Origin: Pseudomonadota bacterium
GTDB taxonomy: Bacteria > Pseudomonadota > Alphaproteobacteria > Caulobacterales > Parvularculaceae
Direction: 5' to 3'
Length of the DNA: 64,000 bases
Assembly (NCBI GenBank): GCA_039818345.1
Contig: JBCBUC010000009.1
Span: 46,549-110,548 of the forward strand
The translations under genes and the position numbers were made by a program. How positions within the stretch are numbered: position 1 is the first letter of the stretch; each line of letters starts with the position of its first letter. The notes below the pieces were generated by a model. It was not told where the DNA came from, did no database searches, and saw only the letters and a program-made list of their open reading frames with translations. Positions 5,948-64,000 of the stretch are shown here, piece by piece.

Positions 5948-7255
5948 CTATGGAAGGCGGTCGCGAAGAGAATAATAAGCCATGCCAAGCGCCAGCAGCG
6001 GAAGCCGGAGGGCAGCGCCCCCTGGAAAGGCCGTTGTGGGAACCCTTTCCATCAAAGAGAAACGTTCGGCCGAACCTGCGATCGCGTCGGCCCCCAGGGA
6101 ACCTGCGAGGGTCGCTAGCGCAACACCATGACCAGAATACCCGCCCATGGTCAGAATACGGTGAGATAACCACTCAAAATGCGGCATACGGTTCATCGTG
6201 ACACCCACGACCCCGCCCCAGCCATAATCGACCCGCACCTTTTCCATCTGCGGGTAAATGCGCAGCATGGCCGCGCGCACATAAGACTTGACGTCTTGCG
6301 GAAAACGGTAGCGATAACTCTCTCGCCCTCCCCACAGCATACGCTTGTCCGAAGACAGACGGTAGTAGTTGATCACAAAGTTGGAATCAGCGATCGCGGC
6401 ATTATTACTGATCAGTGATTGCGCGAGATCATCATCGAGCGGTTCAGTAGCGATTACAAAGTTATTGATCGGCATGACACGATCAGCAGTGTGCTTGTTT
6501 AATCCACCAACATAACCGTTTGCTGCGAGCACGACGTGGTCAGCCGTAACCTGCCCACCATCTGTCTTCACAACGACCTTGTTGGATTCTTGGATATCGA
6601 GGGCTTGCGATTGTTCAAAGAATGTAACCCCGTGGTCGCGACAGGCTTTGGCAAGCCCAACAGCGTAACGAAGCGGGTGGAGATGCCCTGCCCCGACGTC
6701 AAGCGTTCCATTAAAATAGGCGTCAGTGGCTAAAATCTCGCGAAGCTCGTCTTCGGGCACGAAAGATATATGCTCATAGCCGTATTCGGATCGTAGAAAG
6801 TCGACATATTGCTCTGTCTCATGACCAAAGCGGCGTCGATGATTGACCTCCATAACACCCGATTGATAATCGCAGTCGATCGAATACTGATCGATCATTT
6901 TTGCAACCAGTTGTTTCGCCTCCTGACCTAAAAACCAGAGCTTGCGCGCATCTTCCGGCCCCACCATATCAGCAAGTGATTGCTGATCAACACGCTGGCC
7001 CGATCCCACCTGGCCGCCATTGCGCCCCGACGCACCCCAACCAATCCGGTGAGCATCGAGAATAGCCACATTGTATCCGCGTTGCGCAAGATGAAGCGCC
7101 GTGGAGAGTCCGCAAAACCCGGCGCCGATGATGCAAACATCCGCCTTATGTTCCCCCTTCAGCACGGGAAATGGTGGTAGTGGATCGGCGCTAGCTAGGT
7201 AATAGGAGTTTGGATACTCGCCTTTTTTTTCGTTTGCATAAAGTACATTGATCAT
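5948..7255 (-). CDS. FAD-dependent oxidoreductase, PuuB/gamma-glutamyl-amine oxidase-like (copy 1)
   Basis: NSYY N-terminus, IIGAGFCGL, GWGASGRNGG, YYRLS, GYSGHGVA. In an operon with a GS-like ligase and a GATase. Confidence 0.85.
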   Translation of the reverse strand: MINVLYANEKKGEYPNSYYLASADPLPPFPVLKGEHKADVCIIGAGFCGLSTALHLAQRGYNVAILDAHRIGWGASGRNGGQVGSGQRVDQQSLADMVGPEDARKLWFLGQEAKQLVAKMIDQYSIDCDYQSGVMEVNHRRRFGHETEQYVDFLRSEYGYEHISFVPEDELREILATDAYFNGTLDVGAGHLHPLRYAVGLAKACRDHGVTFFEQSQALDIQESNKVVVKTDGGQVTADHVVLAANGYVGGLNKHTADRVMPINNFVIATEPLDDDLAQSLISNNAAIADSNFVINYYRLSSDKRMLWGGRESYRYRFPQDVKSYVRAAMLRIYPQMEKVRVDYGWGGVVGVTMNRMPHFEWLSHRILTMGGYSGHGVALATLAGSLGADAIAGSAERFSLMERVPTTAFPGGAALRLPLLALGMAYYSLRDRLP

Positions 7256-7271
7256 CGGCGCCTTCTCCGGT

Positions 7272-7991
7272 TCAGTCGCTGATGAACTCGAAGATCATCT
7301 CTTGGATCAGGTCAGCATTGATCTTTGTCTTCAAAGACGCAAGCGCCTGATCGGCCTGTTCGTCGGTCAGAACAATGCCCCGCCGCGCCTCTGCCAATTC
7401 CTCTGTGTACGCCTTGGTGAACTCTGGATGCGCCTGAAACGTCAGCACACGATCTCCGTATCGCAAGCCAGCGATCGGGCAAAAATCAGATGACGCGATC
7501 GTTTCAGCTTGGGCTGGCGCTCTTATCACTTGGTCTTGGTGCCACGCATAAAGAGCGATGTCTTGCGTCTGTCCATTTGCTCCTTGCAACGTATAGTGCA
7601 TCGCGCCAGCGCCAAAGCCTTTGTCGCTTTTTTCGACCTCGCCGCCGAGGGCCTGGGCAATGATCTGATGGCCAAAACAGACGCCGACCATCTTTTTGCC
7701 GCTGTCATAGATCTGACGGATCAACTCCTCAAGCGGAGCGATCCAAGCATGATCTTCATAGACACCAAATTTTGATCCTGTGACAACGAAGACATCATAT
7801 TCCGTGATATCGTCGGGAAACTCTCCGTCTAGGATCGCAAATGTATCGGCGTCATCAGGCGCGCGACCCATGAGAGCCTTGCACATATCGTCATAATCGC
7901 CGTGCCGCTCCTCCGAACCCGGCACAGACCGCCCCGTTTGAAGGACAGCCATCCGTTGAGACGAGGTGCCATTCATCTTCACAAGTTCCAT
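7272..7991 (-). CDS. Class I glutamine amidotransferase-like hydrolase (probable gamma-glutamyl-amide hydrolase)
   Basis: Catalytic triad GVCFGHQ ... FQAHPEF, TGS motif. ATG overlaps the upstream stop (TGATG). Confidence 0.85.
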   Translation of the reverse strand: MELVKMNGTSSQRMAVLQTGRSVPGSEERHGDYDDMCKALMGRAPDDADTFAILDGEFPDDITEYDVFVVTGSKFGVYEDHAWIAPLEELIRQIYDSGKKMVGVCFGHQIIAQALGGEVEKSDKGFGAGAMHYTLQGANGQTQDIALYAWHQDQVIRAPAQAETIASSDFCPIAGLRYGDRVLTFQAHPEFTKAYTEELAEARRGIVLTDEQADQALASLKTKINADLIQEMIFEFISD

Positions 7992-9346
7992 CAAACCGTC
8001 CCCAGATAAGCTTCGTACTCTGTCAGCGGCACCATCTCAGCAAACGTATCATATTCCTGTCGTTTGCAGGCAGCGTAGACGTCATGCAGCAATGGATTGA
8101 AAACGTCCCGCATCCCATTTGACGTCGCAAACGCTTGGATGGCTCCCAACCAGGTGGTCGGCAATGTTGGTAGACCACTCGCATAGGCGTTGCCTTGCAG
8201 GGGGGCTTGCGGTTCGATTTTTTGTTCAACCCCGTCGATAAGAGCGCCCATGATTGCTGCCAGGACGAGGTAAGGGTTTGCATCCGCGCCCGCCACTCGA
8301 TGCTCAAGACGGCGGGCCTTATGATCACTGCTTGGTATACGGATCGATGCCGTTCGATTGTCATACCCCCACGATACCGTGGTCGGCGCGTGCGTTCCTT
8401 CACGCAGACGCCGATAAGAATTCGCGTGGGGAGCAAAGACGAGCATCGATGCCGGCAAAGCCTTCAATATGCCGCCGACGGCATGGCGTAAGGTATCAGA
8501 ACCATCTTCCGCGCCATTATCGAACAGATTGGCGCCAACACTATCGAGGACACTGATATGGGTATGCAGTCCGTTTCCGCACTGATCACCAAAAGGCTTC
8601 GCCATGAAGGTTGCGCCAACACCGTGCTGGCGAGCCACGTCCTTGACGATGTACTTTAAGCGTTGAGCGTCATCGGCGGCGCGCAACGCGTCGGGGCGAT
8701 GATCAAGATTGATTTCGAACTGACCACATCCACCTTCTGAAACAATGGCGCCTACCGGAATATCTGCCTTTTGACATACCGTATAGATATCGTCGAGAAT
8801 TTGATCGCTGTCTTTCAACTCATCGATCGAATACATCGCGTTAACCGATGACGACCGAAAAAGACCCGGGGCCTGCGTATGATCGCCGCCAGAAAGGTTA
8901 TAGAAGCAAAACTCCATTTCCATGGCGCAGACGGCGGTCCACCCACGATCGCTGTATCGTTTGCACACGGAAGCGAGCGCATGACGAGGGTCGGCTTCGT
9001 AAGGCGCGCCATCCGCGCGGTGCATCCACAGGGGCATGAGCTCTGATCGAGCCCGTTCATGATGCAAAACCGGCGCCTGTTCAGAAATTGGCAGCAACAC
9101 ACCATCAACATCGCCGGTTTCCAGGATCTGTCCGCTACCGATCACGTCCCTGCCCCAAATATCAAGAAAAAGGGTAGCGAGCGGAAGTTTCATCTTCCCC
9201 CTTTTGAGCGCCTCGATTTCGGATGGAGGCAGTCTTTTGCCGCGGTAGACACCGTTCAGGTCACAGACCACCGCATAGAGGCTGGGAGTGCGTCCCTGCC
9301 TAGCCGTATATTCTAGACTGTCCTTATCGGCTTCCGTTTCTTGCAT
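7991..9346 (-). CDS. Glutamine synthetase-like gamma-glutamyl-amine ligase (PuuA/PauA-like), copy 1
   Basis: DLNGVYRGK, EMEF, EGGCGQFEIN, FMAKPF, GNGLHTH, WGYDNRT, EHRVAGADANPY. Confidence 0.9.
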   Translation of the reverse strand: MQETEADKDSLEYTARQGRTPSLYAVVCDLNGVYRGKRLPPSEIEALKRGKMKLPLATLFLDIWGRDVIGSGQILETGDVDGVLLPISEQAPVLHHERARSELMPLWMHRADGAPYEADPRHALASVCKRYSDRGWTAVCAMEMEFCFYNLSGGDHTQAPGLFRSSSVNAMYSIDELKDSDQILDDIYTVCQKADIPVGAIVSEGGCGQFEINLDHRPDALRAADDAQRLKYIVKDVARQHGVGATFMAKPFGDQCGNGLHTHISVLDSVGANLFDNGAEDGSDTLRHAVGGILKALPASMLVFAPHANSYRRLREGTHAPTTVSWGYDNRTASIRIPSSDHKARRLEHRVAGADANPYLVLAAIMGALIDGVEQKIEPQAPLQGNAYASGLPTLPTTWLGAIQAFATSNGMRDVFNPLLHDVYAACKRQEYDTFAEMVPLTEYEAYLGTV

Positions 9347-9378: not shown

Positions 9379-10869
9379 CTATGACAGCTGCAGCCAAATC
9401 GTCTTGAGCTCTGTGTACTTATCAAGCGCGTGAAGCGAACGATCGCGGCCGAACCCAGACTGCTTGAAGCCGCCGAACGGCGTGGTGATGTCGCTACCGT
9501 CCCAGCAGTTGATCCAAACATTTCCTGCACGGAGCTTGCGGCCAGCATAATGGGCGGTGTTGATGTCCCGGGTCCAAATCCCAGCCGCGAGGCCATAAAT
9601 CGAGTCATTAGCGATCTTGATGGCTTCATCGAAATCGTCAAATGCGATCGCTGAGATGACTGGACCGAAAATTTCTTCCCGGGCGATCGTCATGTCATTG
9701 GTCACACCGTCGAACAGAGTCGGCGCCACGTAAAAACCACCGGAATTGGTCAACGCCTGTTCACCACCGCTCACAAGCTGGGCACCCTCGGACTTACCCT
9801 TTTCGATGTAGCCGAGGACACGACTCATTTGCGATGCGTCAACAAGGGAGCCAAACTCCGTCTCAGGATCAAGAGGATCACCTGGCTCGAGGGTCCGCGC
9901 GATGGATGACACTTTGGCCAAGAATTCGTCTTTGATCTCACGTTGCACAAGCAGCCGGGAGCTGGCCGTGCACACTTGACCCTGGTCATAGAAGACGCCC
10001 CAAGCAGCAGCCTCAGCCGCCGCATCGAGATCTGGGCAGTCGGCCATGACGATCTGAGGGCTCTTACCGCCGCACTCCAATCCCACGCGTTTCATATTGG
10101 ATTGGGCCGCATACTCCATAATCAGTTTGCCAACAGCGGTCGAACCTGTGAACGCGATGGCGTCGACATCCATATGTTTGGCGAGCGGCGCACCGGCATC
10201 AATACCATTGCCGGTCACAACGTTGAAAACACCGTCCGGTATCCCTGCCGCTGCGGCTAACTCAGCGACCCGCAGGAGGGAGAGGCTCGTTTGCTCGGCA
10301 GGCTTCACAACGATGCTGTTACCCGCGGCCAGAGCAGGCGCAAACTTCCAAGAAGCCATCAACAGAGGAAAGTTCCAAGGAATAATCGCACCGACAACAC
10401 CGACCGGTTCTCGAACAATCATCGACACGGCATTCGACGGGGACGGACCAAGCTCGTCGTTGATCTTGTTGATCGCCTCGGCATAGTAGCGGACTGTTTC
10501 AACCGTTAACGGAATATCCGCACTTAAAGTGTTCTTGATCGGCTTACCGAGGTCCAAGGTCTCCAGCAGCGCCAATTCCTCGGCGTGAGACGCCAAAAGA
10601 TCGGCAAACCGAAGAAGCACTTGCCGGCGCTCATTTGGGCTTTGGCCCTGCCAAACCCCGCTTTCAAAAGAAGCGCGCGCTGCGGCAACGGCGTTGTCGA
10701 CATCGTCAACAGATCCTGCCGCGATCTGGGTCAACGTTGAGCCATCAATGGGCGAGATGGCGTCCATCGTTTTGCCGGATTGCGCGGGGACGAAGCGACC
10801 ATTGATGAACGACTCGCTACGGAGAGACACTTTTGCAAGCGCACCTTCGATGCTGGGGGATGCTGTCAT
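9379..10869 (-). CDS. Aldehyde dehydrogenase, PuuC/PauC-like
   Basis: IIPWNFP, KPAEQT, FTGSTAVG, LECGGKSP, GQVCTA, EEIFGP, FGGFKQSG. Start taken at ATG 10869. Confidence 0.9.
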   Translation of the reverse strand: MTASPSIEGALAKVSLRSESFINGRFVPAQSGKTMDAISPIDGSTLTQIAAGSVDDVDNAVAAARASFESGVWQGQSPNERRQVLLRFADLLASHAEELALLETLDLGKPIKNTLSADIPLTVETVRYYAEAINKINDELGPSPSNAVSMIVREPVGVVGAIIPWNFPLLMASWKFAPALAAGNSIVVKPAEQTSLSLLRVAELAAAAGIPDGVFNVVTGNGIDAGAPLAKHMDVDAIAFTGSTAVGKLIMEYAAQSNMKRVGLECGGKSPQIVMADCPDLDAAAEAAAWGVFYDQGQVCTASSRLLVQREIKDEFLAKVSSIARTLEPGDPLDPETEFGSLVDASQMSRVLGYIEKGKSEGAQLVSGGEQALTNSGGFYVAPTLFDGVTNDMTIAREEIFGPVISAIAFDDFDEAIKIANDSIYGLAAGIWTRDINTAHYAGRKLRAGNVWINCWDGSDITTPFGGFKQSGFGRDRSLHALDKYTELKTIWLQLS

Positions 10870-10986
10870 GATCTCGAACTCTCTTGAATGACCGGGGTCC
10901 GCATCGCTCATGGCAGCCCCTACGATACGCAAAGAACTAGGACGATTTATCGATGAGACACTGCTTTTTCAAGAATGATCGGCAAA

Positions 10987-10996
10987 TGTGATCACA
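10987..10996. promoter_or_regulatory. Palindromic operator candidate TGTGATCACA upstream of the ALDH-GS-GATase-oxidase operon
   Basis: Seen as aaaTGTGATCACAaat. One of 7 intergenic copies of YGTGATCACR. Confidence 0.6.
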
Positions 10997-11091
10997 AATA
11001 ACAGCACGTGGATTCGCGTTTGGAAGGTCGGAAGCACCCGTTCCACAAGGCTCAATAGCGACGATTTAGCGCCGGAGAAGAGATCATCAAT

Positions 11092-11101
11092 CGTGATCAC
11101 A
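11092..11101. promoter_or_regulatory. Operator candidate CGTGATCACA between gntR and the ALDH gene
   Basis: Seen as caatCGTGATCACAag. Confidence 0.55.
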
Positions 11102-11126: not shown

Positions 11127-11864
11127 CTAGCCTTCAGCGGTAAAATCCGAGGCTGCGATGTTGTCCATCCCATGCAAAATGTCTTGCCGCACCGCCTCTC
11201 GCAGCGCGTCGGGATCATGCTCTTCGATCGCTTGAACGATTTCTTTGTGGTGATCGTCGGTGAGACACGATGTGCCCAGACGGCCAATCACGACCCGCAT
11301 GAACGGCCCGACCCGCATCCAAAGGCTTTCCACCAGATCAAGCAACACCGTTGCTTCGGACGCCCGGTAGAGAGCGAAATGAAATTCGCTGTTATATTGA
11401 GAGTATTGGTTTGCATCACCTCGGCGGATTGCAGCGTCGAGCGAGGCGTCAATCTTCTCGAGCTCTCGCAGCAGCTTCTTCCGATCCCGCGGCTGTCCAT
11501 CGAGCCTGATCAAGGCGCGCTCGGCAAGCGTTGGCTCAAGCCAAAGCCGCGCCGCCTTGATCTCGTCGAGTTTGTCTTCGGTCATGCGCGCGATCGAGAC
11601 GCGCCTTGTTCCTGTGAATTCCAGAGCTCCCCGAGCGGCGAGGCGGCGTATGGCCTCCCTCGCCGGCATCGCGCTGACATCAAACTCAGCCGCGATGCCC
11701 CGCACCGACAACACGCGGCCGGGGCTGAGCCGTCCTGAAATCAGGGCTTCGCGCAGCCGCTCATACACCTGCTCATGCATCGCGACGTTGCCGTCCGACG
11801 CAGGTTCGTTGTCTCCACCCTCCTTAGAGGGCTTGCGATCGTAGATTTTCTCCAGAGCAGCCAT
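11127..11864 (-). CDS. GntR family (FadR/FCD) transcriptional regulator
   Basis: wHTH (VYERLREALISGRLSPG...VSAMPAREA) plus FCD domain (NSEFHFALY, HHKEIVQAI). Confidence 0.92.
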   Translation of the reverse strand: MAALEKIYDRKPSKEGGDNEPASDGNVAMHEQVYERLREALISGRLSPGRVLSVRGIAAEFDVSAMPAREAIRRLAARGALEFTGTRRVSIARMTEDKLDEIKAARLWLEPTLAERALIRLDGQPRDRKKLLRELEKIDASLDAAIRRGDANQYSQYNSEFHFALYRASEATVLLDLVESLWMRVGPFMRVVIGRLGTSCLTDDHHKEIVQAIEEHDPDALREAVRQDILHGMDNIAASDFTAEG

Positions 11865-12005
11865 TATTTTTTCCAAGGATGTGATTGGCTTAGCTGTAAT
11901 GCCCGTGCTTACACTGTGGGTATCTGGGGTGCCATCACAAATTCGACAACGGTGACCAAGTCATGCATGCTCCTCTTTGCAAAGCGGGCCATAAGCAAGT
12001 AGGGT

Positions 12006-12046
12006 TGTGATCACGTTTTTGACATTGCTTCATCCCAAGCAATATC
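12006..12046 (+). promoter_or_regulatory. Operator TGTGATCACG (12006-12015) next to a sigma70-type promoter: TTGACA (12019-12024), -10-like GCAATATC (12039-12046)
   Basis: Read directly from sequence upstream of the GS-spuC operon. Promoter assignment is by consensus match only. Confidence 0.55.
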
Positions 12047-12124
12047 GAGCCGTTAATCTAAGGTGTTCGGCACGCCGGTTCCTAATTGGTCCCGCCGAAT
12101 GCAAACCGGGCGCAAGTCATTAAG

Positions 12125-14905: not shown

Positions 14906-14974
14906 GCGCGTTTCGCCTTTCAGGTGCGTCGTACTGGACACTTTTATTTATCTATTCGTGTAGGGTTCTTTTCT

Positions 14975-15427
14975 ATGGGGCAAATCGTTCGAGGTCAGCT
15001 TGCGCATCTCGATGAGATCGCCCCTCTTTTTGACGCTTACCGGCAATTTTATGAACAGCCTGCTGATCTAGAGGGAGCGAAAGCCTATCTAAAACAACGG
15101 CTAGCGGATGATGATGCGATTGTCTTTTTAGCCAAGGGGAGCAACGGTAACGTCATCGGCTTCACCCTCCTCTACCCCACGTTTTGTTCGGTCGAAATGC
15201 GCCACGTCTTTGTTCTCTATGACCTCTTCGTCGCCCCGACGGCACGACGACGAGGCGTCGGGGAAAAGCTGCTGAGCACCGCTCAAGAGCACGCAAGAGA
15301 CGCAGGCGCTGCGTGGTTAAAGCTTGAAACCGCGTATACAAATAATAGTGCTCAATCGCTCTACGAAAAACTAGGTTGGGAGCGCGACAACGAGTTTCAC
15401 ACCTATATCTTCTCACTGACCGACTGA
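14975..15427 (+). CDS. GNAT N-acetyltransferase (SSAT-like)
   Basis: LYDLFVAPTARRRGVG acetyl-CoA motif A, N..AQSLYEKLGW. Confidence 0.88.
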   Translation: MGQIVRGQLAHLDEIAPLFDAYRQFYEQPADLEGAKAYLKQRLADDDAIVFLAKGSNGNVIGFTLLYPTFCSVEMRHVFVLYDLFVAPTARRRGVGEKLLSTAQEHARDAGAAWLKLETAYTNNSAQSLYEKLGWERDNEFHTYIFSLTD

Positions 15428-55639: not shown

Positions 55640-55665
55640 AGCGCCCGAAAAGCCTGGGCGCTTTT
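55640..55665. terminator. Probable terminator hairpin between convergent genes
   Basis: AGCGCCC-N9-GGGCGCT followed by TTT. Confidence 0.5.
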
Positions 55666-57615: not shown

Positions 57616-58039
57616 CTCATTTCCAAATCTGTTGGTTTGTGACCATCGCGCCATGCTGTTTATCTCTTAGATCACTTAGGTGACTAGCGACCCTGTCAAG
57701 ACAAACCGTAGGCGAACTCTCGCCCGGAACGATAGTGGCAAACGCGGCAAAGATGCAAGGATTGCACTGCAATTGCGAACACGGACAATAACGTGCGAAA
57801 ACAGCACCTCCCCGCAGTACACACGCGGCGCTCACGACCTTTTGAAGTGAGCGAATGAGGCTCATGTCAACGTCGGAGATCATGTTCCCAATGAGCGGCG
57901 GGTCCGCAAGGCATGCCCTTAATGCCTCAAGCTGAGGGGTGATGCGAGGCACCCTGTTTCTTATCGTTGGGCAACGCGCTCGTTTTTATGTTCTTTATAG
58001 GGATGTCCTTCATGATGATACGAACTACACCAAAGGGTG

Positions 58040-58837
58040 TTACTCGGAACTCTGATCGAACATAACGAACCTTTCTCGATCGCGAGCGTAAAGAGCAATG
58101 TTGGCTTCTCTGGCCTTTCGAAGGGCAAAAGCCGTCGGTGCAGAGATGGAAGCAATTGCCCGTACCCCGCATCGAGCCGCCTTCTCCACAATCTCGTACG
58201 AACACCGGCTTGACATCAACAAAAATCCAGACTCGATCTCAACACCCCTGCGTGAGAGAGCCCCCATCAATTTGTCGAGGGCATTGTGCCGCCCGACATC
58301 TTCGCGCGCTAAGGCAATGTTGCCCGACGAGCCTACCCAAGCTGCTGCATGCACGGTTCGCGTTTCTTCGTTGAGTGCCTGGAAACGCGGTAAAGCACGC
58401 AGCGCCCTTAAGAGTGTATGCTGATCTATTAGCAACAGCGTATCCGAGACCCTTGGCAAAACCTCGAAGAAGGTCTCTGCGTTCTCAAGACCGCATAAGC
58501 CACAGCTTGCTCGCCCGGCAAGATTTCTGCGCCGCAGCACCGTATCAAGCCGTTCGATTCGGTCGGACGCTATGTCAATGCGCAGTTCGATGCCGCGGTC
58601 TATGAAATAGATATCGACGCTGATGATTTCAGACAGATCATCAACAACCCGCTCAGTCAGCGAAAAACCGACAGCGAAATCCTCCAGATCAGCAGGGGTC
58701 GTCAGCATCACTGCATAGTTTCGGCCATTGTAAACCAACGCAGCAGGAACTTCCTCGGGAACGCGCCACATCCCGCCATCCAATTTGGCATCCCGCGCTG
58801 TTGGCGGAGGATCCCCAAAATGCCGAAAGACTGGCAC
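58040..58837 (-). CDS. fdhD: Formate dehydrogenase accessory sulfurtransferase FdhD/FdsC
   Basis: VPEEVP, SCGLCG, TVHAAA, REDVGRHNALDK, SSRCSYE. Confidence 0.93.
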   Translation of the reverse strand: MPVFRHFGDPPPTARDAKLDGGMWRVPEEVPAALVYNGRNYAVMLTTPADLEDFAVGFSLTERVVDDLSEIISVDIYFIDRGIELRIDIASDRIERLDTVLRRRNLAGRASCGLCGLENAETFFEVLPRVSDTLLLIDQHTLLRALRALPRFQALNEETRTVHAAAWVGSSGNIALAREDVGRHNALDKLMGALSRRGVEIESGFLLMSSRCSYEIVEKAARCGVRAIASISAPTAFALRKAREANIALYARDRERFVMFDQSSE

Positions 58838-61687
58838 TTACTCTGCCAGCGGGTTGGCGCCCGGCGAAAGAACTTTCCGCATCTCATCGGTCGATAGCTC
58901 ATACCGCTCTTGCCACGGAGATTTATGATTTGCTGGCGTCACCTCGACCGCCGTCACCTTGTATTCAGGGCAGTTTGTGGCCCAATCGGACAACTCCGTT
59001 GTGACCACGTTTGCTCCGGTCTCCGGGTGATGGAAGGTTGTGTAGACAACACCGGGTTGCATCCGCTCAGAGACTTTTGCGCGCAACGAGATTTCTCCCT
59101 TTCGCGACCGAACCGCGACCCAATGGCCATCGCGAATGCCCCGTGTCTCGGCGTCAGCTGGATGAATCTCAAGAAGGTCTTCATCATGCCAGGTATCATT
59201 CGCGGTACGGCGCGTTTGGGCACCAACATTATATTGAGACAAGATACGGCCAGTCGTCAGGATCAGTGGGAACTTCCGATTGGTTTTTTCTTCCGTCGGC
59301 ACATAATCGGTGACCACGAACTGACCTTTGCCGCGAACAAACTCATCAACGTGCATGATCGGTGTGCCGTCCGGTGCATCTTCGTTACATGGCCACTGGA
59401 CTGAGCCTTTTTCGTCGAGAGTCGTGAAGGAAACTCCGCTAAAGGAAGGCGTCAACGCCGCAATTTCATCCATAATGCCCGAGGCGCTTTGGTGTCCCAT
59501 TTCATAACCGAGGGCACGCGCGAGGTCTTGGGTCACTTCCCATTCCTCTTTTCCCGTCTTTGATTTCATCACCGGACGAACACGATTGATGCGGCGTTCT
59601 GCGTTGATGAACGTTCCGTCTTTTTCCAAAAACGATGTACCCGGTAAGAAGACATGCGCAAACCTCGCGGTCTCATTAAGGAAAAGATCCTGGACGACCA
59701 AGATATCGAGGGCCGTGAGCGCTGCTTCGACGTGCTGTGTGTCCGGATCGGACTGCGCCACATCTTCGCCTTGGATATACATCCCGCGATAAGTTCCCGC
59801 ACAGGCCTCGTCGAACATATTGGGAATACGAAGGCCCGGCGCGTTATCCATACGGACCTTCCACGCTTTTTCAAAGGTCGCCCGCGCGGCATCATCGGTT
59901 ACCGGACGATAACCAGACAACTCATGCGGGAAGGATCCCATATCGCAAGATCCTTGCACATTATTCTGCCCGCGCAAGGGGTTCACGCCCACTCCGCGTC
60001 GCCCAATATTCCCCGTCACCATCGCAAGATTGGCCATCCCCATCACCATGGTGGAGCCTTGGCTATGCTCGGTGACGCCCAGACCGTAATAGATCGCGGC
60101 GTTTGGAGCAGTAGCGAACATTCGCGCTGCTTGCCGAATGTCTTGAGCCGGAACACCCATGGTCTCAGCTATTGCCTCAGGGGAATTCTCCTTAGAAACA
60201 ATGAAGTTGAACCATTCTTTGAACGATGAGAGGTCACACCGTTCCTTGACGAAAGCATCATCCATTAAGCCTTCGGTGGCCACGACATGCGCAATCGCGT
60301 TGATCATCGCGACATTGGTTCCTGGCATGAGCGGCAGATGGTACTCTGCCTGAATGTGGGGTGTCCGGACCAGATCGATCTTACGTGGATCAGCAACGAT
60401 CAGCTTTGCCCCTTCGCGCAAGCGCCGCTTCATCTGAGACGCAAAGACGGGATGGGCATCAGTGGGATTAGCCCCGATGACAAAAATGACGTCTGCGTCT
60501 TGGACGCTGTCAAAATCCTGCGTGCCCGCTGACGTTCCATAGGTCTGTTTGAGGCCATACCCCGTGGGCGAATGGCAGACACGGGCACAGGTGTCGACAT
60601 TGTTGTTACCGAACGCTGTCCGCACCAACTTTTGGACAAGCCAAACCTCCTCAGCCGTGCAGCGGGAGGACGTAATGGCACCGACAGATTTAGGACCATA
60701 ATTCGCTTGCGTCGCTTTAAATCGATCCGCTGCAAAGTTGATCGCTTCATCCCAAGAGACCACACGCCATGGATCCGTGATCTTTTCCCGGATCATCGGC
60801 TCCGTGATACGATCTTTATGGGTGGCATAACCGAAGGCGAAGCGTCCTTTCACGCATGAATGTCCATGATTAGCGCCGCCGTCTTTATAGGGAACCATAC
60901 GGACAACTTGATCGCCTTTCAGCTCTGCTTTGAACGAACACCCGACGCCGCAATAGGCGCAAGTCGTCAAAACGGTCCGTTCGGGCACCCCATGTTCGAC
61001 CACTGATTTTTCTTGTAGGGTTGCGGTGGGACAAGCCTGGACACAGGCGCCGCATGACACGCACTCTGAATCAAAGAAATCAGCGCCAGCCACGGCGATT
61101 TTGGAGTCAAACCCTCGGCCGTCAACCGTCAGCGCGAGCGTACCTTGCACTTCGTCACAAGCACGTACGCAACGCGAACACACGATACACTTCGACGGAT
61201 CAAAATCGAAATAGGGATTACTCTGATCTTTCTCTGTATCAAGATGGTTTTCACCATCATAACCATAACGGACATCACGCAGACCAACGACACCGGCCAT
61301 GTCCTGAAGCTCACAATCACCATTGTCCGAGCATGTCAGGCAATCCAATGGATGATCGGAGATATAAAGCTCCATCACCCCGCGCCGAAGTCGGCTTAGA
61401 CGATCAGTCTGCGTACTCACCTTCATCCCCTCACGCACAGGGGTTGTGCAGGACGCGGGTGTCCCTCGTTGACCATCGATTTCCACCAAGCAGAGCCGAC
61501 AGGAGCCATAGCTCTTAAGGGAGTCCGTGGCGCAGAGTTTGGGGACCGAAATACCGAGCGTGGCCGCCGCGCGCATCACACTGGCGCCCTCCTCAACCTC
61601 AACCCGGAAACCGTCGATCTCTAAGGAGACCATCTTGCCTGTCTTGGGTTTCGGCGTACCAAAATCAAATTCCTTCAGGATCGCCAT
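58838..61687 (-). CDS. fdsA: NAD-dependent formate dehydrogenase alpha subunit (Mo/W-bisPGD, Cys ligand)
   Basis: N-terminal Fe-S motifs (LC..GSCRLC, HPLDCLTC, CIVCSRC, CVSCGAC, CAYCGVGC), CARVCH active site, RGQNNVQG. Confidence 0.95.
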   Translation of the reverse strand: MAILKEFDFGTPKPKTGKMVSLEIDGFRVEVEEGASVMRAAATLGISVPKLCATDSLKSYGSCRLCLVEIDGQRGTPASCTTPVREGMKVSTQTDRLSRLRRGVMELYISDHPLDCLTCSDNGDCELQDMAGVVGLRDVRYGYDGENHLDTEKDQSNPYFDFDPSKCIVCSRCVRACDEVQGTLALTVDGRGFDSKIAVAGADFFDSECVSCGACVQACPTATLQEKSVVEHGVPERTVLTTCAYCGVGCSFKAELKGDQVVRMVPYKDGGANHGHSCVKGRFAFGYATHKDRITEPMIREKITDPWRVVSWDEAINFAADRFKATQANYGPKSVGAITSSRCTAEEVWLVQKLVRTAFGNNNVDTCARVCHSPTGYGLKQTYGTSAGTQDFDSVQDADVIFVIGANPTDAHPVFASQMKRRLREGAKLIVADPRKIDLVRTPHIQAEYHLPLMPGTNVAMINAIAHVVATEGLMDDAFVKERCDLSSFKEWFNFIVSKENSPEAIAETMGVPAQDIRQAARMFATAPNAAIYYGLGVTEHSQGSTMVMGMANLAMVTGNIGRRGVGVNPLRGQNNVQGSCDMGSFPHELSGYRPVTDDAARATFEKAWKVRMDNAPGLRIPNMFDEACAGTYRGMYIQGEDVAQSDPDTQHVEAALTALDILVVQDLFLNETARFAHVFLPGTSFLEKDGTFINAERRINRVRPVMKSKTGKEEWEVTQDLARALGYEMGHQSASGIMDEIAALTPSFSGVSFTTLDEKGSVQWPCNEDAPDGTPIMHVDEFVRGKGQFVVTDYVPTEEKTNRKFPLILTTGRILSQYNVGAQTRRTANDTWHDEDLLEIHPADAETRGIRDGHWVAVRSRKGEISLRAKVSERMQPGVVYTTFHHPETGANVVTTELSDWATNCPEYKVTAVEVTPANHKSPWQERYELSTDEMRKVLSPGANPLAE

Positions 61688-61697
61688 GGCACACCTT

Positions 61698-63260
61698 CTA
61701 TTCCGCAGCCAAATTGGTTTGCTTTGTCGGCTTGAAATCTTCGGGGAAGTGTTTGATCGCGCTTTGAACGGGAATCGGGGTCATCCCGCCCATGGCGCAT
61801 AGTGATCCGTCGACCATCACTTCACAGAGATCGTCGAGAACGGCGCGTTGCTGCTCTGGTTCTTCGCCCGAACGCCACCGATCGATCACTTCGACACCGC
61901 GCACCGCACCAATTCGGCAAGGGGTGCACTTCCCACAACTTTCTTCCGCACAGAACTCAAAGGCATATCGTGCCTGATTCATAAGATCGACTGTGTCGTC
62001 AAAGACGACGAGACCCCCATGGCCGACGCCCGCGCCATTGGCCAACATGGTCTCATAATCCATTGGCAGATCAAAGAGCGACGTCGGTAGATAAGCACCC
62101 AAGGGACCGCCGATCTGGACCGTCCGTACAGGGCGACCCGTCCGTGTCCCACAACCGATGTCGTTCACCAACTGATTGAGCGTGACACCGAAACCAGCCT
62201 CGAACAAACCACCATGTTTGATGTTACCGGCGAGTTGGAACGGCATGGTACCGGTTGAGCGCCCCATGCCAAAGTCCCGGTAATAGGTTGAGCCTTTGGC
62301 TAAAATAAGGGGAACGGAGCACAGTGTGATGACATTATGAACGAGCGTTGGTTTTCCATACAAACCCTCGAGCGCAGGGATCGGAGGTTTCGCCCGCACC
62401 TCACCACGCTTCCCCTCGAGGCTGTTGAGAAGGGATGTCTCCTCGCCGCAGATATAGGCACCTGCGCCAACAAAAACTTCGATATCAAAGGGATGACCGG
62501 GCCCTCCTGCATCGGCACCGAGCATGCCTTCGTCATAGGCCCGCCGGATAGCAGTCTTCAGTACATCGTCTGCAATTGGATATTCTGATCGAAGATAAAT
62601 ATAACCGCGCGTCGCACCGGTTGCGATTCCGGCAATGATCATACCCTCAAGAAGAAGGAAAGGGTCACCTTCCATGATCATACGATCAGCAAACGTACCG
62701 CTGTCACCTTCATCGGCGTTGACAACGACGTATTTTTGATCGGCTGCCGCTTCGGAAACGGTCTTCCATTTGATACCAGCGGGAAAGCCCGCGCCGCCTC
62801 GACCACGTAACCCTGAATCGAGAACAGCCTCGCATATTGTCGATGGCCGCATCGTTTGTGCCGCGTGAAGCCCATCGAGACCACCGTGGTTTTGATAGTC
62901 ACGCAAACTGAGCGGGTCGGTGATGCCGCATCGACCAAAGATCAGCCGTGTTTGATTTTTCAGGAAAGGTATCTCTTCGACAGGGCCAACGCACTTATCA
63001 TGGGATCCGTCAGCAACCAGAGCAGTAAGCACATCACCAGCTTCCTGCTCATCGATTGGTCCATAACCAACGCGCGTGCCGTTCCGTTCGACTTCGAGCA
63101 ACGGCTCGAGCCAATGAAGACCGCGCGAGCCGGTTCGGACAATATCGATCTCGACTCCCTGCTCTTCCGCTGTACGCACGAGCGCGACCGCCAATTCATC
63201 AGCACCCAAGCTAATGGCCACTGAATCAAGCGGAAGAAAGAGGCGAAGTCGCTTCGTCAC
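61698..63260 (-). CDS. fdsB: Formate dehydrogenase beta subunit (NuoF-like FMN/NAD)
   Basis: GLRGRGGAGFP, NADEGDSG, GAGAYICGEE, ESCGKCTPCR, SLCAMG. Confidence 0.94.
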   Translation of the reverse strand: MTKRLRLFLPLDSVAISLGADELAVALVRTAEEQGVEIDIVRTGSRGLHWLEPLLEVERNGTRVGYGPIDEQEAGDVLTALVADGSHDKCVGPVEEIPFLKNQTRLIFGRCGITDPLSLRDYQNHGGLDGLHAAQTMRPSTICEAVLDSGLRGRGGAGFPAGIKWKTVSEAAADQKYVVVNADEGDSGTFADRMIMEGDPFLLLEGMIIAGIATGATRGYIYLRSEYPIADDVLKTAIRRAYDEGMLGADAGGPGHPFDIEVFVGAGAYICGEETSLLNSLEGKRGEVRAKPPIPALEGLYGKPTLVHNVITLCSVPLILAKGSTYYRDFGMGRSTGTMPFQLAGNIKHGGLFEAGFGVTLNQLVNDIGCGTRTGRPVRTVQIGGPLGAYLPTSLFDLPMDYETMLANGAGVGHGGLVVFDDTVDLMNQARYAFEFCAEESCGKCTPCRIGAVRGVEVIDRWRSGEEPEQQRAVLDDLCEVMVDGSLCAMGGMTPIPVQSAIKHFPEDFKPTKQTNLAAE

Positions 63261-63727
63261 TCAGCCACCTCAAGTCCCGCGGCGCTGCAGCGAGCCTTAA
63301 TACGTACAGCGTCGGCTCGACCGATCAAACGGCCATCAACCATCGCTGCGGGCGCCACCGAACAGAGGCCCAAGCAATAGACGTCCTCAACCGTCACGCC
63401 CATCGTGGTTGATCCGCCATCGAATGTGTCCTCCAGTTCTTTTCGAACTGTCTGCACACCAGCGGCTTGGCAAGCCTCAGCAGCACACAAACGTACTAAA
63501 ATGCCTTCCACGCGGGTCCGCGAAAAGTCTGCATAGAAACTGATGACACCCCGAACCTCAGCACGGCTCAAGTTAAAGAGGTCGGCAATCAAAAGATCAG
63601 CCTCTTCGGGGACGCATCCAAACTCCTCCTGGATCGCCCGTAACGAAGCAATGACGCCGCCTACAGCGCCAACGTGTTCCGAAATAATCTCCGTTAAACG
63701 GAGGGTTTGGCTCAGGTTTTGCGACAT
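63257..63727 (-). CDS. fdsG: Formate dehydrogenase gamma subunit (NuoE-like 2Fe-2S)
   Basis: LSRAEVRGVISFY, CAAEAC...CLGLC ligands. Start moved to ATG 63727. Confidence 0.9.
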   Translation of the reverse strand: MSQNLSQTLRLTEIISEHVGAVGGVIASLRAIQEEFGCVPEEADLLIADLFNLSRAEVRGVISFYADFSRTRVEGILVRLCAAEACQAAGVQTVRKELEDTFDGGSTTMGVTVEDVYCLGLCSVAPAAMVDGRLIGRADAVRIKARCSAAGLEVAE

Positions 63728-63841
63728 CCCTTCGAGCTCCTGACACGCACCATCAATTGGCAACAAAACTGTCTGCAACGACTTCTCTTTGCCATTTAGA
63801 GTTATACATCGTACTGGACAGCCGAATTAATGGAAAGCTCT

Positions 63842-64000
63842 ATGACCAGCCGATTTATCTTCACAACCCAGTGCCAGGACCAGGTCGGCATCGTTGCGGC
63901 GGTCGCGACCTGCCTACTCGATCACGGCTTCTTTATTGATGAAGCGGCGCAATTTGGCGATGAGTTGACCGGTCGTTTCTTCATGCGCCTGCAAATCCGT
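63842..64000 (+). CDS. purU: Formyltetrahydrofolate deformylase, N-terminal ACT domain; runs off the right edge
   Basis: Translated by hand: MTSRFIFTTQCQDQVGIVAAVATCLLDHGFFIDEAAQFGDELTGRFFMRLQIR, matching the PurU C.D..GIV..V / QF.D..TGRFFMR pattern. Only 53 aa visible. Confidence 0.8.
   Translation, partial: MTSRFIFTTQCQDQVGIVAAVATCLLDHGFFIDEAAQFGDELTGRFFMRLQIR

What the first reader, a model, noticed from the sequence alone, without database searches (positions are those of the whole stretch)
5948..64000. Candidate TonB-dependent utilization locus for large and/or N-methylated polyamines, wired to a C1 sink
SEEN: one contiguous block holds a TBDR, two Tat-exported SpdH-like enzymes, SSS/MFS/SMR transporters, three GS-like ligases, two PuuB-like oxidases, hydrolase, ALDH, SpuC- and BauA-like transaminases, MmsA, Ald, two FAD+GcvT cassettes, then frmAB, FDH and purU. 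KNOWN: gamma-glutamylation (Puu/Pau) degrades putrescine/spermidine. SpdH cleaves spermidine to 1,3-diaminopropane and 4-aminobutanal, and BauAB removes the resulting beta-alanine. Unmodified polyamines produce no C1 units and are normally taken up by Pot ABC systems. GcvT-folate domains and PurU accompany N-demethylation (sarcosine/dimethylglycine). INFERENCE: the substrate is a larger, N-methylated polyamine, for example diatom-type methylated oligo-propylamines or methylated spermidines. It would be imported by the TBDR, cut in the periplasm by SpdH1/2, demethylated by the cassettes, and the methyl carbon oxidised via THF/GSH to formate and CO2. I know of no described pathway of this shape.
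Basis: partly seen in the sequence, partly recalled or inferred. Interest (0 to 1): 0.85.

Follow-up and report, generated by a model that had tools for sequence, protein, structure and literature searches.

The report
Polyamine island with folate-linked demethylase modules
This is a real, horizontally acquired gene island for breaking down polyamine-type nitrogen compounds, and it carries two copies of an untested three-protein unit that most likely strips methyl groups from amines onto folate. The claimed link to diatom long-chain polyamines and to the neighbouring formaldehyde/formate genes is not shown.

Summary
The gene inventory is confirmed almost item by item. purU has only 57 codons inside the window, and the rest lies just beyond its end.

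**New element.** Each "FAD+GcvT cassette" is three translationally coupled genes. Two are paralogous CrtI/amine-oxidase-fold flavoproteins (alpha, beta) and the third is a stand-alone GcvT-like folate protein. The genome holds three such cassettes plus a solo alpha-like gene.

**What comparison with other genomes supports:**
- The trio stayed together in 45 of 45 related loci of at least 18 kb, mostly marine Gammaproteobacteria.
- It recurs next to Pau-type gamma-glutamylation genes, SpdH, PotF/G-like ABC importers, GbcA-like Rieske oxygenases and GFA-domain proteins. It also recurs next to a TonB receptor / TPR-sulfotransferase / AspH-like / propeller module.
- In this genome a palindromic operator (core GTGATCAC) ties the TonB receptor, the SSS-SpdH2 operon and the Pau operon containing cassette 1 into one predicted GntR regulon.

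**What is not supported:**
- A "large" substrate is not implied. Relatives use Pot-type ABC uptake, and this genome has almost no such binding proteins.
- The C1 genes are not wired in. frmA/fghA occur in congeners without the island, no operator precedes them, and none neighbour the cassette in 45 loci. Only the FDH operon is accessory.

The diatom-polyamine idea is plausible but untested. This scan has already found the same three-gene module in at least eight other genomes.

The parts
5948..7255 (-). PuuB/PauB-like DAO-family FAD oxidase 1
   Evidence: NCBIfam DAO-family hits, below equivalog cut-offs. It is 37% identical to DAO2.
7272..7994 (-). Class-I glutamine-amidotransferase-like hydrolase (PauD-type)
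   Evidence: PRK05665 at 188 bits. Pfam GATase.
7991..9346 (-). GS-like gamma-glutamyl-amine ligase 1
   Evidence: The top hit is gamma-glutamylputrescine synthetase at 215 bits, below the cut-off of 650.
9379..10932 (-). PuuC/PauC-like aldehyde dehydrogenase
   Evidence: PuuC model at 613 bits, cut-off 850.
10988..11100 (.). Two operator copies (core GTGATCAC at 10988 and 11093) upstream of the ALDH-GS1-GATase-DAO1 operon
11127..11876 (-). GntR-family regulator, the likely binder of the palindromic operator
   Evidence: A 56%-identical paralogue lies in the second operator-rich cluster on C27.
12007..12014 (.). Operator core between the GntR gene and the GS2 operon
   Evidence: It is conserved at the same position in L099, L016, L017 and L027.
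12086..13474 (+). GS-like ligase 2, first gene of the operon that holds cassette 1
13490..14905 (+). SpuC-type class-III aminotransferase
   Evidence: PRK07480 at 664 bits, above the cut-off of 510.
14924..15427 (+). GNAT acetyltransferase
15454..17082 (+). Cassette 1 alpha: CrtI/amine-oxidase-fold flavoprotein (542 aa)
   Evidence: Pfam Amino_oxidase. There are 8000 or more metagenomic homologues, the best 120 being 75-97% identical. The AF2 model has pLDDT 85.7; the best PDB fold match is 4REP, TM 0.73. The start codon was read.
17075..18628 (+). Cassette 1 beta: paralogous flavoprotein
   Evidence: It is about 30% identical to alpha and keeps an intact GGGHNG motif. Its ATG overlaps the end of alpha by 8 nt.
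18628..19824 (+). Cassette 1 GcvT-like folate protein
   Evidence: Pfam GCV_T at 189 bits. PDB T-protein 2e-43 and Tdm 7e-41. Its ATG shares 1 nt with the beta stop codon.
19849..20643 (+). PhyH-family Fe/2OG dioxygenase
20653..22560 (-). SpdH1, Tat-exported spermidine-dehydrogenase homologue
   Evidence: PDB 7D9F at E=1e-170 over the full length. SRRDFL motif.
22694..24193 (-). MmsA/BauC methylmalonate/malonate-semialdehyde dehydrogenase
   Evidence: TIGR01722 at 688 bits, above the cut-off of 448.
24214..25668 (-). AptA/BauA-type omega-aminotransferase
   Evidence: NF052567 at 635 bits, above the cut-off of 500.
25701..26246 (+). PuuR-like regulator
26273..26602 (+). SMR cation efflux protein
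26630..28258 (+). Solo alpha-like CrtI-fold flavoprotein
   Evidence: It is 36-37% identical to the alphas..
28619..29107 (-). Lrp/AsnC regulator
29222..30331 (+). Alanine dehydrogenase
   Evidence: TIGR00518 at 485 bits, above the cut-off.
30639..31988 (+). GS-like ligase 3
32027..33349 (+). PuuB-like DAO oxidase 2
33410..33946 (-). Cupin_3 protein with a signal-peptide-like N-terminus; an operator core lies at 33939
34113..36587 (-). TonB-dependent receptor
   Evidence: Plug plus barrel domains. It is the best genome hit of the receptors that sit beside cassettes in L012 and L015.
36649..36656 (.). Operator core in the divergent TBDR/AspH promoter region
36863..37426 (+). AspH-like cupin hydroxylase
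   Evidence: It occurs in 12 of 45 related loci at 53-62% identity.
37437..38366 (+).
   Evidence: No Pfam hit. It is 48-52% identical to the ~310-325 aa gene beside the TBDR in L012 and L015.
38363..40396 (-). TPR-sulfotransferase fusion
   Evidence: Sulfotransfer_3 at 158 bits plus TPR repeats. Paralogues on C17 and C6 each sit beside a TBDR.
40519..40714 (.). Two operator cores (40519, 40707) between the TPR-sulfotransferase gene and the memb-SSS-SpdH2 operon
40818..41708 (+). Conserved membrane protein of unknown family (likely start at 40872)
   Evidence: A paralogue lies beside cassette 3, and homologues lie between the two cassettes in gammaproteobacterial loci.
41788..43539 (+). Sodium:solute symporter
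43559..45448 (+). SpdH2, Tat-exported SpdH homologue
   Evidence: It is 41-43% identical to SpdH1. TRRDFV motif.
45577..45921 (-). Cupin_3 protein ending the cassette 2 operon
45946..47157 (-). Cassette 2 GcvT-like protein
   Evidence: GCV_T at 191 bits plus GCV_T_C. Folate motifs align with Tdm.
47176..48795 (-). Cassette 2 alpha
   Evidence: It is 59% identical to alpha 1.
48792..50336 (-). Cassette 2 beta (gene order is beta-alpha-GcvT; 4-nt overlap with alpha)
   Evidence: It is 41-43% identical to beta 1. Coordinates.
50383..51261 (-). AraC-family regulator
   Evidence: AraC follows cassette 2 in type I loci.
51272..53502 (-). ABC_membrane_3 protein and MFS transporter
53549..54253 (+). 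MOSC-domain protein
   Evidence: It is a conserved neighbour of cassette 2 in type I loci.
54681..55637 (+). Membrane protein of unknown family
   Evidence: Homologues lie beside SpdH or cassette genes in 5 related loci.
55664..57654 (-). fghA and frmA (glutathione-dependent formaldehyde oxidation). Adjacent to the island, but not part of it.
   Evidence: Above cut-offs. frmA was found in 14 of 22 congeners, most of which lack the island.
58040..63778 (-). fdhD-fdsA-fdsB-fdsG, NAD-type formate dehydrogenase (accessory in this genus)
   Evidence: FdsA was found in 0 of 22 congeners.
63830..64000 (+). purU, first 57 codons only
   Evidence: The full gene scores 340 bits on TIGR00655.

Best explanation
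The block from 5948 to about 55600 is a mosaic, horizontally acquired island for using polyamine-type amines as carbon and nitrogen sources.

**Shown by homology**
- Two Tat-exported SpdH enzymes cleave polyamines in the periplasm.
- Three GS-like ligases, two PuuB-like oxidases, a PuuC-like ALDH and a PauD-like hydrolase form a gamma-glutamylation route.
- SpuC-type and AptA/BauA-type transaminases, MmsA and Ald dispose of the aminoaldehyde and beta-alanine products and recycle pyruvate.

**Inferred**
- Each alpha-beta-GcvT cassette is a hetero-oligomeric, tetrahydrofolate-coupled flavoprotein amine dehydrogenase. It oxidises an N-methyl (N-CH3) bond and hands the C1 unit to folate. It works like dimethylglycine/sarcosine dehydrogenases, but is built from CrtI-fold flavoproteins and a separate folate subunit.
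- Its substrates are N-methylated di- or polyamine pieces, free or gamma-glutamylated.
- The TonB-dependent receptor and its TPR-sulfotransferase, AspH-like and unknown-family partners belong to the same GntR-controlled regulon. The receptor probably provides high-affinity outer-membrane uptake, which does not require a large substrate.
- The SSS, the conserved acidic membrane protein and/or the MFS carry substrate across the inner membrane.
- The neighbouring frmA-fghA and purU genes are general C1 housekeeping rather than part of the island. The FDH operon is an accessory addition whose link to the island is only suggestive.
For: - **Gene identities:**
- **Translational coupling:** alpha, beta and GcvT overlap by 8 nt and 1 nt in cassette 1. 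In cassette 2, beta and alpha overlap by 4 nt.
- **Trio kept together:** the three genes stay together in 45 of 45 loci of at least 18 kb across two proteobacterial classes.
- **Recurrent neighbours:** GS-like in 19 of 45 loci, DAO in 16 of 45, class-III transaminases in 22-25 of 45 and SpdH in 7 of 45. PotF-like binding protein, PotG/PotA ATPase and permeases occur in 17-23 loci. GbcA-like Rieske oxygenases occur in about half the mapped loci, and GFA-domain proteins in about 10 loci.
- **Third cassette:** the copy in the same genome is flanked by a GbcA-like Rieske oxygenase, a class-III transaminase and a BetI-type TetR.
- **Folate motifs:** GcvT2 keeps the family motifs (GxxxDDG, RTGYTG-LGYE, R-L/I-EAG) in alignment with TMAO demethylase.
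- **Operator:** yGTGATCACr has 37 sites in 3.36 Mb. Seven are in promoter regions of this island (ALDH operon, GntR/GS2, cupin, TBDR/AspH, TPR/memb-SSS-SpdH2). Six are in a second SpdH/GS/DAO/TBDR cluster with a GntR paralogue. The motif is conserved beside GntR in four related alphaproteobacterial islands.
- **TBDR module:** TBDR plus TPR-sulfotransferase, with the unknown-family gene and/or AspH, lies next to cassettes in about 10 gammaproteobacterial loci. The window's TBDR and TPR proteins are the best genome hits of those.
- **Accessory status:** alpha was found in 2 of 22 congeners and 5 of 201 genomes of the order (including this genome). SpdH was found in 1 of 22 congeners.
Against: - No biochemical or expression data exist.
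- No N-methylated polyamine is identified by any computation here.
- Type I loci in gammaproteobacteria carry both cassettes with the TBDR module but without Pau genes within 10 kb. The cassettes' substrate therefore need not be a polyamine.
- Cassette 2 has no GntR operator and sits under an AraC-type regulator.
- TBDR plus TPR-sulfotransferase is a generic pair, with three copies in this genome.
- TBDR identity to the gammaproteobacterial counterparts is only 30-37%.
- Alpha's closest solved folds are carotenoid desaturases, so an amine substrate rests on gene context.
Confidence: 0.5

Rival explanations
1. The locus is dedicated to large, N-methylated long-chain polyamines of diatom type. 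They are imported through the TBDR because of their size and cut by SpdH1/2. The cassettes demethylate the pieces, and the methyl carbon is channelled through the adjacent frmAB, FDH and purU genes as a dedicated sink.
For: - Everything cited for the best explanation also applies here.
- The cassette family is abundant in marine bloom- and sediment-associated Gammaproteobacteria such as Porticoccaceae, Halieaceae and Woeseiaceae.
- There are four SpdH paralogues in a 3.4-Mb genome.
- The FDH operon is accessory in the genus. It is adjacent to AraC plus a cassette in one other alphaproteobacterial locus, L019.
Against: - About half of the related loci pair the cassette with PotF/PotG-type ABC import of small polyamines.
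- The genome has only one SBP_bac_8 protein, so use of a TBDR need not reflect substrate size.
- frmA (85% identical) and fghA occur in congeners without the island.
- purU lies beside frmA in island-less congeners G006 and G014.
- No operator precedes the C1 genes.
- 0 of 45 loci have frmA, fghA or an fds-type FDH within 10 kb of the cassette.
- G010, which carries the island, shows no FdsA or FrmA, although it is only 85% complete.
- No literature on bacterial degradation of long-chain polyamines was found.
Confidence: 0.12
2. This is an ordinary polyamine island (putrescine, spermidine, norspermidine, 1,3-diaminopropane). The cassettes serve a different class of methylated amines, such as betaine-, choline- or methylamine-type osmolytes. 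They are co-located only because amine-catabolic genes tend to cluster.
For: - Cassette 3 sits with a GbcA-like Rieske oxygenase and a BetI-type TetR, not with Pau genes.
- Type I loci lack GS/DAO genes within 10 kb.
- Cassette 2 is under AraC, without the GntR operator.
- A few loci carry TMADH/DgcA-like OYE-type enzymes.
Against: - Cassette 1 lies inside the GS2-SpuC-GNAT operon with 26 nt or less between genes, behind the GntR operator. That operon is conserved in four other loci.
- In gammaproteobacteria the cassette is followed directly by GS-like, Rieske, DAO and GATase genes and flanked by PotF/G-like transporters.
Confidence: 0.2
3. The alpha-beta-GcvT unit does not release C1 units. 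The flavoproteins would carry out a desaturation or an amine oxidation of another kind. The GcvT-like protein would serve a structural or non-folate role.
For: - The closest solved folds of alpha are carotenoid desaturases: 4REP at TM 0.73, and CrtI.
- All hits to curated demethylase models are below cut-off.
Against: - The GcvT-like proteins match the folate-binding domain along its whole length at 189-191 bits, with the family's conserved motifs.
- Every characterised member of that family transfers a C1 unit to or from folate (established knowledge of T-protein, DMGDH/SARDH, SoxA, Tdm, DmdA and LigM).
- GbcA-like demethylating oxygenases and GFA-domain proteins recur beside the cassettes.
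Confidence: 0.1

Closest known systems
Puu pathway of E. coli and Pau/Spu pathway of Pseudomonas aeruginosa (gamma-glutamylation of polyamines)
   Same: GS-like ligases, DAO-type gamma-glutamylamine oxidases, an ALDH, an amidotransferase-like hydrolase, a pyruvate-dependent SpuC-type transaminase and a PuuR-like regulator are all present.
   Different: All hits are below the equivalog cut-offs. There is no Pot or PuuP importer. A three-gene flavoprotein/folate module is inserted in the operon. Control is by a GntR-type operator.
SpdH plus BauABCD of P. aeruginosa (spermidine cleavage and beta-alanine disposal)
   Same: SpdH1 gives a full-length match to the solved SpdH (E=1e-170) and has a Tat signal. 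It is co-transcribed with a BauA-type transaminase and MmsA/BauC.
   Different: There are four SpdH paralogues at 41-46% mutual identity. Their substrate range is unknown.
Dimethylglycine/sarcosine dehydrogenases and oxidases, heterotetrameric sarcosine oxidase, N-methylglutamate dehydrogenase, TMAO demethylase
   Same: A GcvT-type folate domain is paired with an oxidising partner, so that the C1 unit of an N-methyl group goes to tetrahydrofolate. This is what the cassette most likely works like.
   Different: Those flavoproteins are DAO-fold and are fused or of SoxB type. Tdm has no flavoprotein. Here there are two CrtI/amine-oxidase-fold paralogues and a separate folate subunit. The cassette is not a member of any of those families.
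GbcAB glycine betaine monooxygenase (Rieske)
   Same: GbcA is the best curated match of the Rieske oxygenase that accompanies cassette 3 and most type II loci. It suggests removal of the first methyl group from a quaternary or tertiary amine.
   Different: The score is 268-275 bits against a cut-off of 670. The substrate is therefore probably not glycine betaine.
Human PYROXD2 (orphan mitochondrial CrtI-like flavoprotein)
   Same: In the literature, the PYROXD2 locus is linked by metabolite genetics to methylated amines (papers listed, for example PMC3169529).
   Different: The relationship was not tested here, because no PYROXD2 sequence was available to the tools. PYROXD2 has no assigned reaction.
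TonB-dependent utilisation loci (CUT loci, PUL-like systems)
   Same: A TBDR is co-regulated and syntenic with catabolic genes and inner-membrane secondary transporters.
   Different: No SusD-like partner or glycan-active enzymes are present. The partners are a TPR-sulfotransferase, an AspH-like hydroxylase and a protein of unknown family. The proposed substrate is a cationic amine.

Membership tests
SpdH spermidine dehydrogenase | Full-length similarity to the characterised or solved enzyme | tested here: met
   SpdH1 against PDB 7D9F: E=1e-170, residues 7-632 of 635. SpdH2 is 41-43% identical to SpdH1.
SpdH spermidine dehydrogenase | Periplasmic location through a Tat signal | tested here: met
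   SRRDFL and TRRDFV motifs at the N-termini. This is motif-level evidence only.
SpdH spermidine dehydrogenase | Cleaves spermidine to 1,3-diaminopropane and 4-aminobutanal | not testable with these tools
   This needs an enzyme assay.
Puu/Pau gamma-glutamylation pathway | A complete set of ligase, oxidase, aldehyde dehydrogenase and hydrolase | tested here: met
   All four classes are present, and the ligase and oxidase are in multiple copies. Every hit is below the NCBIfam equivalog cut-off, so the substrates are not assigned.
GcvT/aminomethyltransferase folate-binding family | GCV_T domain over its full length with conserved folate-site motifs | tested here: met
   PF01571 at 189 and 191 bits. 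Motifs align with Tdm 9q5a.
DMGDH/SARDH/DMGO-type N-demethylases | A DAO-fold flavoprotein domain fused to the GcvT domain in one chain | tested here: not met
   The flavoproteins are separate CrtI/amine-oxidase-fold proteins. The GcvT protein stands alone.
Heterotetrameric sarcosine oxidase / N-methylglutamate dehydrogenase | SoxB-type beta subunit plus SoxA with a GcvT domain plus small gamma and delta subunits | tested here: not met
   No SoxB, SoxD or SoxG genes lie in the cassettes. The soxA and soxB models hit only partially and far below cut-off.
CrtI-type carotenoid desaturases | Scores above the family cut-off, with a carotenoid-gene context | tested here: not met
   TIGR02734 scores 107-137 bits against a cut-off of 238. 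There are no carotenoid genes nearby. The fold is shared.
TonB-dependent receptor | N-terminal Plug domain and a 22-strand barrel domain | tested here: met
   PF07715 and PF00593.
Dedicated C1 sink co-inherited with the island | frmA, fghA, FDH and purU co-conserved and co-regulated with the cassettes | tested here: not met
   - frmA is in 14 of 22 congeners, against alpha in 2 of 22.
- 0 of 45 loci have these genes as neighbours.
- No operator precedes them.
- Partial exception: FdsA is in 0 of 22 congeners, and there is one FDH-cassette adjacency, in L019.

The most novel reading that the evidence does not exclude
The alpha-beta-GcvT module would be a new three-component, folate-coupled N-demethylase. 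Together with SpdH paralogues and a TonB-dependent receptor module, it would form a widespread marine pathway for N-methylated (long-chain) polyamines released from diatom silica. That carbon and nitrogen flux has no known catabolic genes. By homology, the finding would also suggest a reaction for the orphan human flavoprotein PYROXD2.
Probability: 0.13. Interest if true: 0.9.

Novelty: new variant of a known kind. Interest (0 to 1): 0.68.

Why it matters
Polyamines and methylated amines are major labile nitrogen sources in the sea. The flavoprotein/folate module found here is very abundant in marine metagenomes. More than 8000 clusters were recovered, and the best 120 are 75-97% identical to alpha 1. 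Every one carries only a generic name.

If the module is a folate-coupled amine demethylase, it adds a new enzyme architecture to C1 metabolism. It also gives concrete candidate genes for the turnover of methylated polyamines.

This window adds three testable handles:
- a defined operator and GntR regulator linking a TonB receptor to polyamine genes;
- several conserved partner proteins of unknown function;
- a cultivable-type alphaproteobacterial host carrying three cassette copies.

Tried and rejected
1. **Literature.** Searches for the cassette, for PYROXD2 with demethylase, for SpdH with aminomethyltransferase, for TonB with polyamine and for long-chain polyamine degradation found nothing relevant. 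The one TonB/polyamine hit concerned petrobactin biosynthesis.
2. **Simple insertion.** I tested whether the island is a simple insertion between conserved flanks. It is not. In complete congeners, MurD2 and frmA lie roughly 140-700 kb apart. The left junction GT2|DAO1 is shared with G010.
4. **C27 receptor.** I asked whether the second TBDR, on C27, is polyamine-specific. It sits with a P450 and a FadD-type ligase inside the same operator-rich cluster, so its substrate is unclear.
5. **Membrane protein as electron acceptor.** I considered the conserved membrane protein as a haem electron acceptor and rejected it. It has no conserved His pairs, and its conserved residues are acidic plus Trp.
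6. **Siderophore uptake.** I considered a polyamine-siderophore role for the TBDR. No FecR/ECF sigma factor or siderophore-utilisation gene was identified among the annotated neighbours.
7. **PYROXD2 homology.** It could not be tested, because no sequence was available to the tools.

Full report
**Observation**

ORF listing and family scans confirm the inventory.

The minus-strand operon 10932-5948 encodes a PuuC-like ALDH, GS-like ligase 1, a class-I GATase-like hydrolase and a DAO-family oxidase. A GntR gene follows at 11127-11876.

A plus-strand operon then runs GS-like 2, a SpuC-type transaminase (above cut-off), GNAT, alpha1 (15454-17082), beta1 (17075-18628), GcvT-like 1 (18628-19824) and a PhyH dioxygenase.

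A minus-strand operon encodes an AptA/BauA-type transaminase and MmsA (both above cut-off), then SpdH1. The remaining genes, in order, are:
- PuuR-like regulator, SMR, and a solo alpha-like flavoprotein;
- Lrp and Ald;
- GS-like 3 and DAO 2;
- a cupin with a signal-peptide-like N-terminus;
- the TBDR (Plug plus barrel);
- an AspH-like hydroxylase and a gene of unknown family;
- a TPR-sulfotransferase;
- a conserved membrane protein, SSS and SpdH2;
- the beta2-alpha2-GcvT2-cupin operon, and AraC;
- an ABC_membrane_3 protein, MFS and MOSC;
- then fghA-frmA, fdhD-fdsABG, and the start of purU.

SpdH1 matches the solved P. aeruginosa SpdH over its full length at E=1e-170. Both SpdH copies carry twin-arginine motifs. 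purU has only 57 codons in the window. The complete gene just beyond scores 340 bits on TIGR00655.

**The cassettes**

Alpha and beta are paralogues of about 30% identity. Both have an intact GxGHNG dinucleotide-binding motif and both hit Pfam Amino_oxidase.

Reading the junctions shows translational coupling. The beta1 ATG overlaps the end of alpha1 by 8 nt, and the GcvT1 ATG shares one base with the beta1 stop codon. In cassette 2, beta2 and alpha2 overlap by 4 nt.

The genome (3.36 Mb, 61 contigs) has a third cassette on contig C34. It is flanked by a GbcA-like Rieske oxygenase (275 bits, cut-off 670), a class-III transaminase, a BetI-type TetR and a paralogue of the conserved membrane protein.

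The GcvT-like proteins match the folate-binding domain end to end at 189-191 bits. In alignment with TMAO demethylase (9q5a) they keep the family's conserved motifs.

An AlphaFold model of alpha1 (pLDDT 85.7, pTM 0.88) is closest to a carotenoid desaturase (4REP, TM 0.73). The next matches are CrtI, and then flavin amine oxidases such as NicA2, MAO and putrescine oxidase at TM 0.5-0.6. There is no close solved relative.

**Distribution**

Alpha has at least 8000 homologous clusters in public data. The best 120 are 75-97% identical, and all carry generic names.

A scan of species-representative genomes gave 577 confirmed loci. The best 80 are mostly marine Gammaproteobacteria: Porticoccaceae, Halieaceae, Woeseiaceae, OM182 and Cellvibrionales. 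A few are Alphaproteobacteria: an Erythrobacter MAG at 84%, Parvularculaceae and Sphingomonadales.

Within the host's own genus, alpha occurs in 2 of 22 other genomes. In the order it occurs in 5 of 201 genomes searched, including this one. SpdH occurs in 1 of 22 congeners. The island is therefore accessory and probably acquired horizontally.

**Neighbourhoods**

I mapped the window's proteins onto the fetched loci and clustered the unlabelled ORFs. Alpha, beta and GcvT are together in 45 of 45 loci of at least 18 kb. Three recurring layouts appear.

- **Type I (alpha 75-81% identical to alpha 1).** The order is TBDR, TPR-sulfotransferase, the unknown-family gene and/or AspH, then [alpha1-beta1-GcvT1]. 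GFA and a homologue of the conserved membrane protein follow. Then come [beta2-alpha2-GcvT2], MOSC and AraC.
- **Type II (alpha 64-69% identical).** The order is TetR, [alpha-beta-GcvT], GS-like, GbcA-like Rieske, DAO and GATase. These loci usually also carry:
  - a PotF-like binding protein (312 bits);
  - a PotG/PotA ATPase (above the TIGR01187 cut-off);
  - two permeases;
  - an acyl-CoA dehydrogenase;
  - an ADP-forming CoA ligase.
- **Alphaproteobacterial loci (L016, L017, L027, and L099 from congener G010).** These repeat the window's GntR / GS2-SpuC-GNAT-cassette-PhyH / SpdH arrangement.

The window is thus a composite of a type I module and Pau-type modules.

**Regulation**

A palindrome with core GTGATCAC recurs in the island's intergenic regions. 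With two mismatches, the 12-mer gives 15 matches against 4.0 expected, and no shuffle reached 15.

Genome-wide, yGTGATCACr has 37 sites. They are distributed as follows:
- Seven lie in promoter regions of this island: two before the ALDH operon, one between GntR and GS2, one before the cupin, one between TBDR and AspH, and two between the TPR-sulfotransferase and the memb-SSS-SpdH2 operon.
- Six lie in a second cluster on C27. That cluster holds a 56%-identical GntR paralogue, an SpdH, GS-like and DAO genes, ALDHs and another TBDR.

The motif is conserved beside GntR in the four related alphaproteobacterial islands and is absent from the gammaproteobacterial loci.

No site precedes cassette 2, frmA, the FDH operon or purU.

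**The TonB receptor**

The receptors and TPR-sulfotransferases beside cassettes in L012 and L015 hit the window's copies best within this genome. The bit scores are 332 and 380 against 288 and 308 for the next paralogue, and 452 and 528 against 375 and 391.

About ten loci have this pair within 10 kb of a cassette. That is roughly tenfold more than expected if three such pairs per genome were placed at random. This is my own rough estimate.

The operator evidence adds to this, so the receptor is probably part of the system. It does not imply a large substrate, for three reasons:
- Type II loci use Pot-type ABC uptake.
- This genome has a single SBP_bac_8 protein.
- TBDR plus TPR-sulfotransferase pairs occur three times in the genome.

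**The C1 genes**

- **frmA and fghA.** frmA, at 74-86% identity, occurs in 14 of 22 congeners, most of which lack the island. fghA was found close to frmA in the four such congeners I examined.
- **purU.** In G006 and G014, purU lies about 1.2 kb from frmA with no island present.
- **Neighbourhood count.** None of frmA, fghA or an fds-type FDH lies within 10 kb of the cassette in 45 loci.
- **FDH.** The FDH operon is the exception. FdsA was found in 0 of 22 congeners. A short alphaproteobacterial contig (L019) has FdsB-FdsA-AraC-cassette.
- **G010.** G010 carries the island but shows neither FdsA nor FrmA. It is only 85% complete.
- **GFA.** GFA-domain proteins beside cassettes in about ten loci are a modest independent hint that formaldehyde is produced.

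**Reading**

The classical parts make a coherent polyamine pathway:
1. SpdH cleaves polyamines in the periplasm.
2. Gamma-glutamylation and transamination process the amine ends.
3. Beta-alanine goes through the AptA-type transaminase and MmsA.
4. Ald recycles alanine to pyruvate.

Unmodified polyamines give no C1 units. Yet the folate subunit, the GbcA-like oxygenases and the GFA proteins all point to C1 release.

The simplest unifying idea is that the cassettes oxidatively demethylate N-methylated di- or polyamine pieces and pass the carbon to tetrahydrofolate. They would work like DMGDH, SARDH or Sox enzymes without belonging to those families.

My rough probabilities are:
- the island is for polyamine-type catabolism: about 0.9;
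- the cassettes release C1 units to folate: about 0.7;
- the substrates are N-methylated polyamine-type compounds: about 0.45;
- the TBDR takes part: about 0.45;
- the substrate is specifically diatom long-chain polyamines: about 0.1-0.15;
- the C1 sink is dedicated and co-regulated: about 0.2.

**Context in this scan**

The same three-gene module has been reported and followed up in at least eight other genomes. One of those reports reads it as a methylated-polyamine operon. These are unchecked AI notes and not independent evidence.

This window adds:
- the TBDR, SpdH and operator linkage;
- the conserved partner proteins;
- a negative result on the C1-sink wiring.

No paper describing the module was found in the library searched.

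Noticed in passing
G000 contig C27, about 10-37 kb (L008 = C27:18000-37999): A second operator-rich cluster has six yGTGATCACr sites. It holds a GntR paralogue, an SpdH paralogue, GS-like and DAO genes, two ALDHs and a class-III transaminase. It also holds a molybdopterin oxidoreductase-like gene and a TBDR co-oriented with a cytochrome P450, divergent from a FadD4-like acyl-CoA ligase. It may handle acylated or otherwise modified polyamines.
   Followed up: partly
window 40818-41708; L007 4599-5426; L012 14431-15339; L015 14832-15689: This is a membrane protein family with no Pfam match. It has invariant Asp/Glu-Trp motifs in its hydrophobic helices and a conserved Cys pair. It accompanies the cassettes in both Alpha- and Gammaproteobacteria, so it is a candidate amine transporter or sensor.
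   Followed up: partly
window 36863-40396: An AspH-like hydroxylase, a ~310-aa protein of unknown family and a TPR-sulfotransferase travel together with the TBDR in several taxa. The same TBDR plus TPR-sulfotransferase pairing occurs twice more in this genome (C17:71.5-75.8 kb and C6:25.1-28.7 kb). Its role is unknown.
   Followed up: partly
window 54681-55637: This is a membrane protein with no family match. Homologues at 42-51% identity lie directly beside SpdH2-like or cassette genes in five gammaproteobacterial loci (L059, L060, L069, L073, L076).
   Followed up: no
window 2266-4886: A 451-aa protein with no Pfam hit is translationally coupled to a divergent MurD-like ligase (TIGR01087, 199 bits, just under the cut-off of 212). 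The MurD-like gene is present in 20 of 22 congeners.
   Followed up: no
L022 7672-9753 (also L023, L026, L069): A 693-aa OYE-type FMN domain fused to a Pyr_redox_2 domain lies beside cassettes in four loci. From memory, this is the architecture of trimethylamine dehydrogenase and DgcA, which would make it another demethylase-type neighbour.
   Followed up: no
L007 18350-19495: A phage-type integrase lies about 5.6 kb downstream of cassette 3 on contig C34. This fits mobility of that cassette.
   Followed up: no
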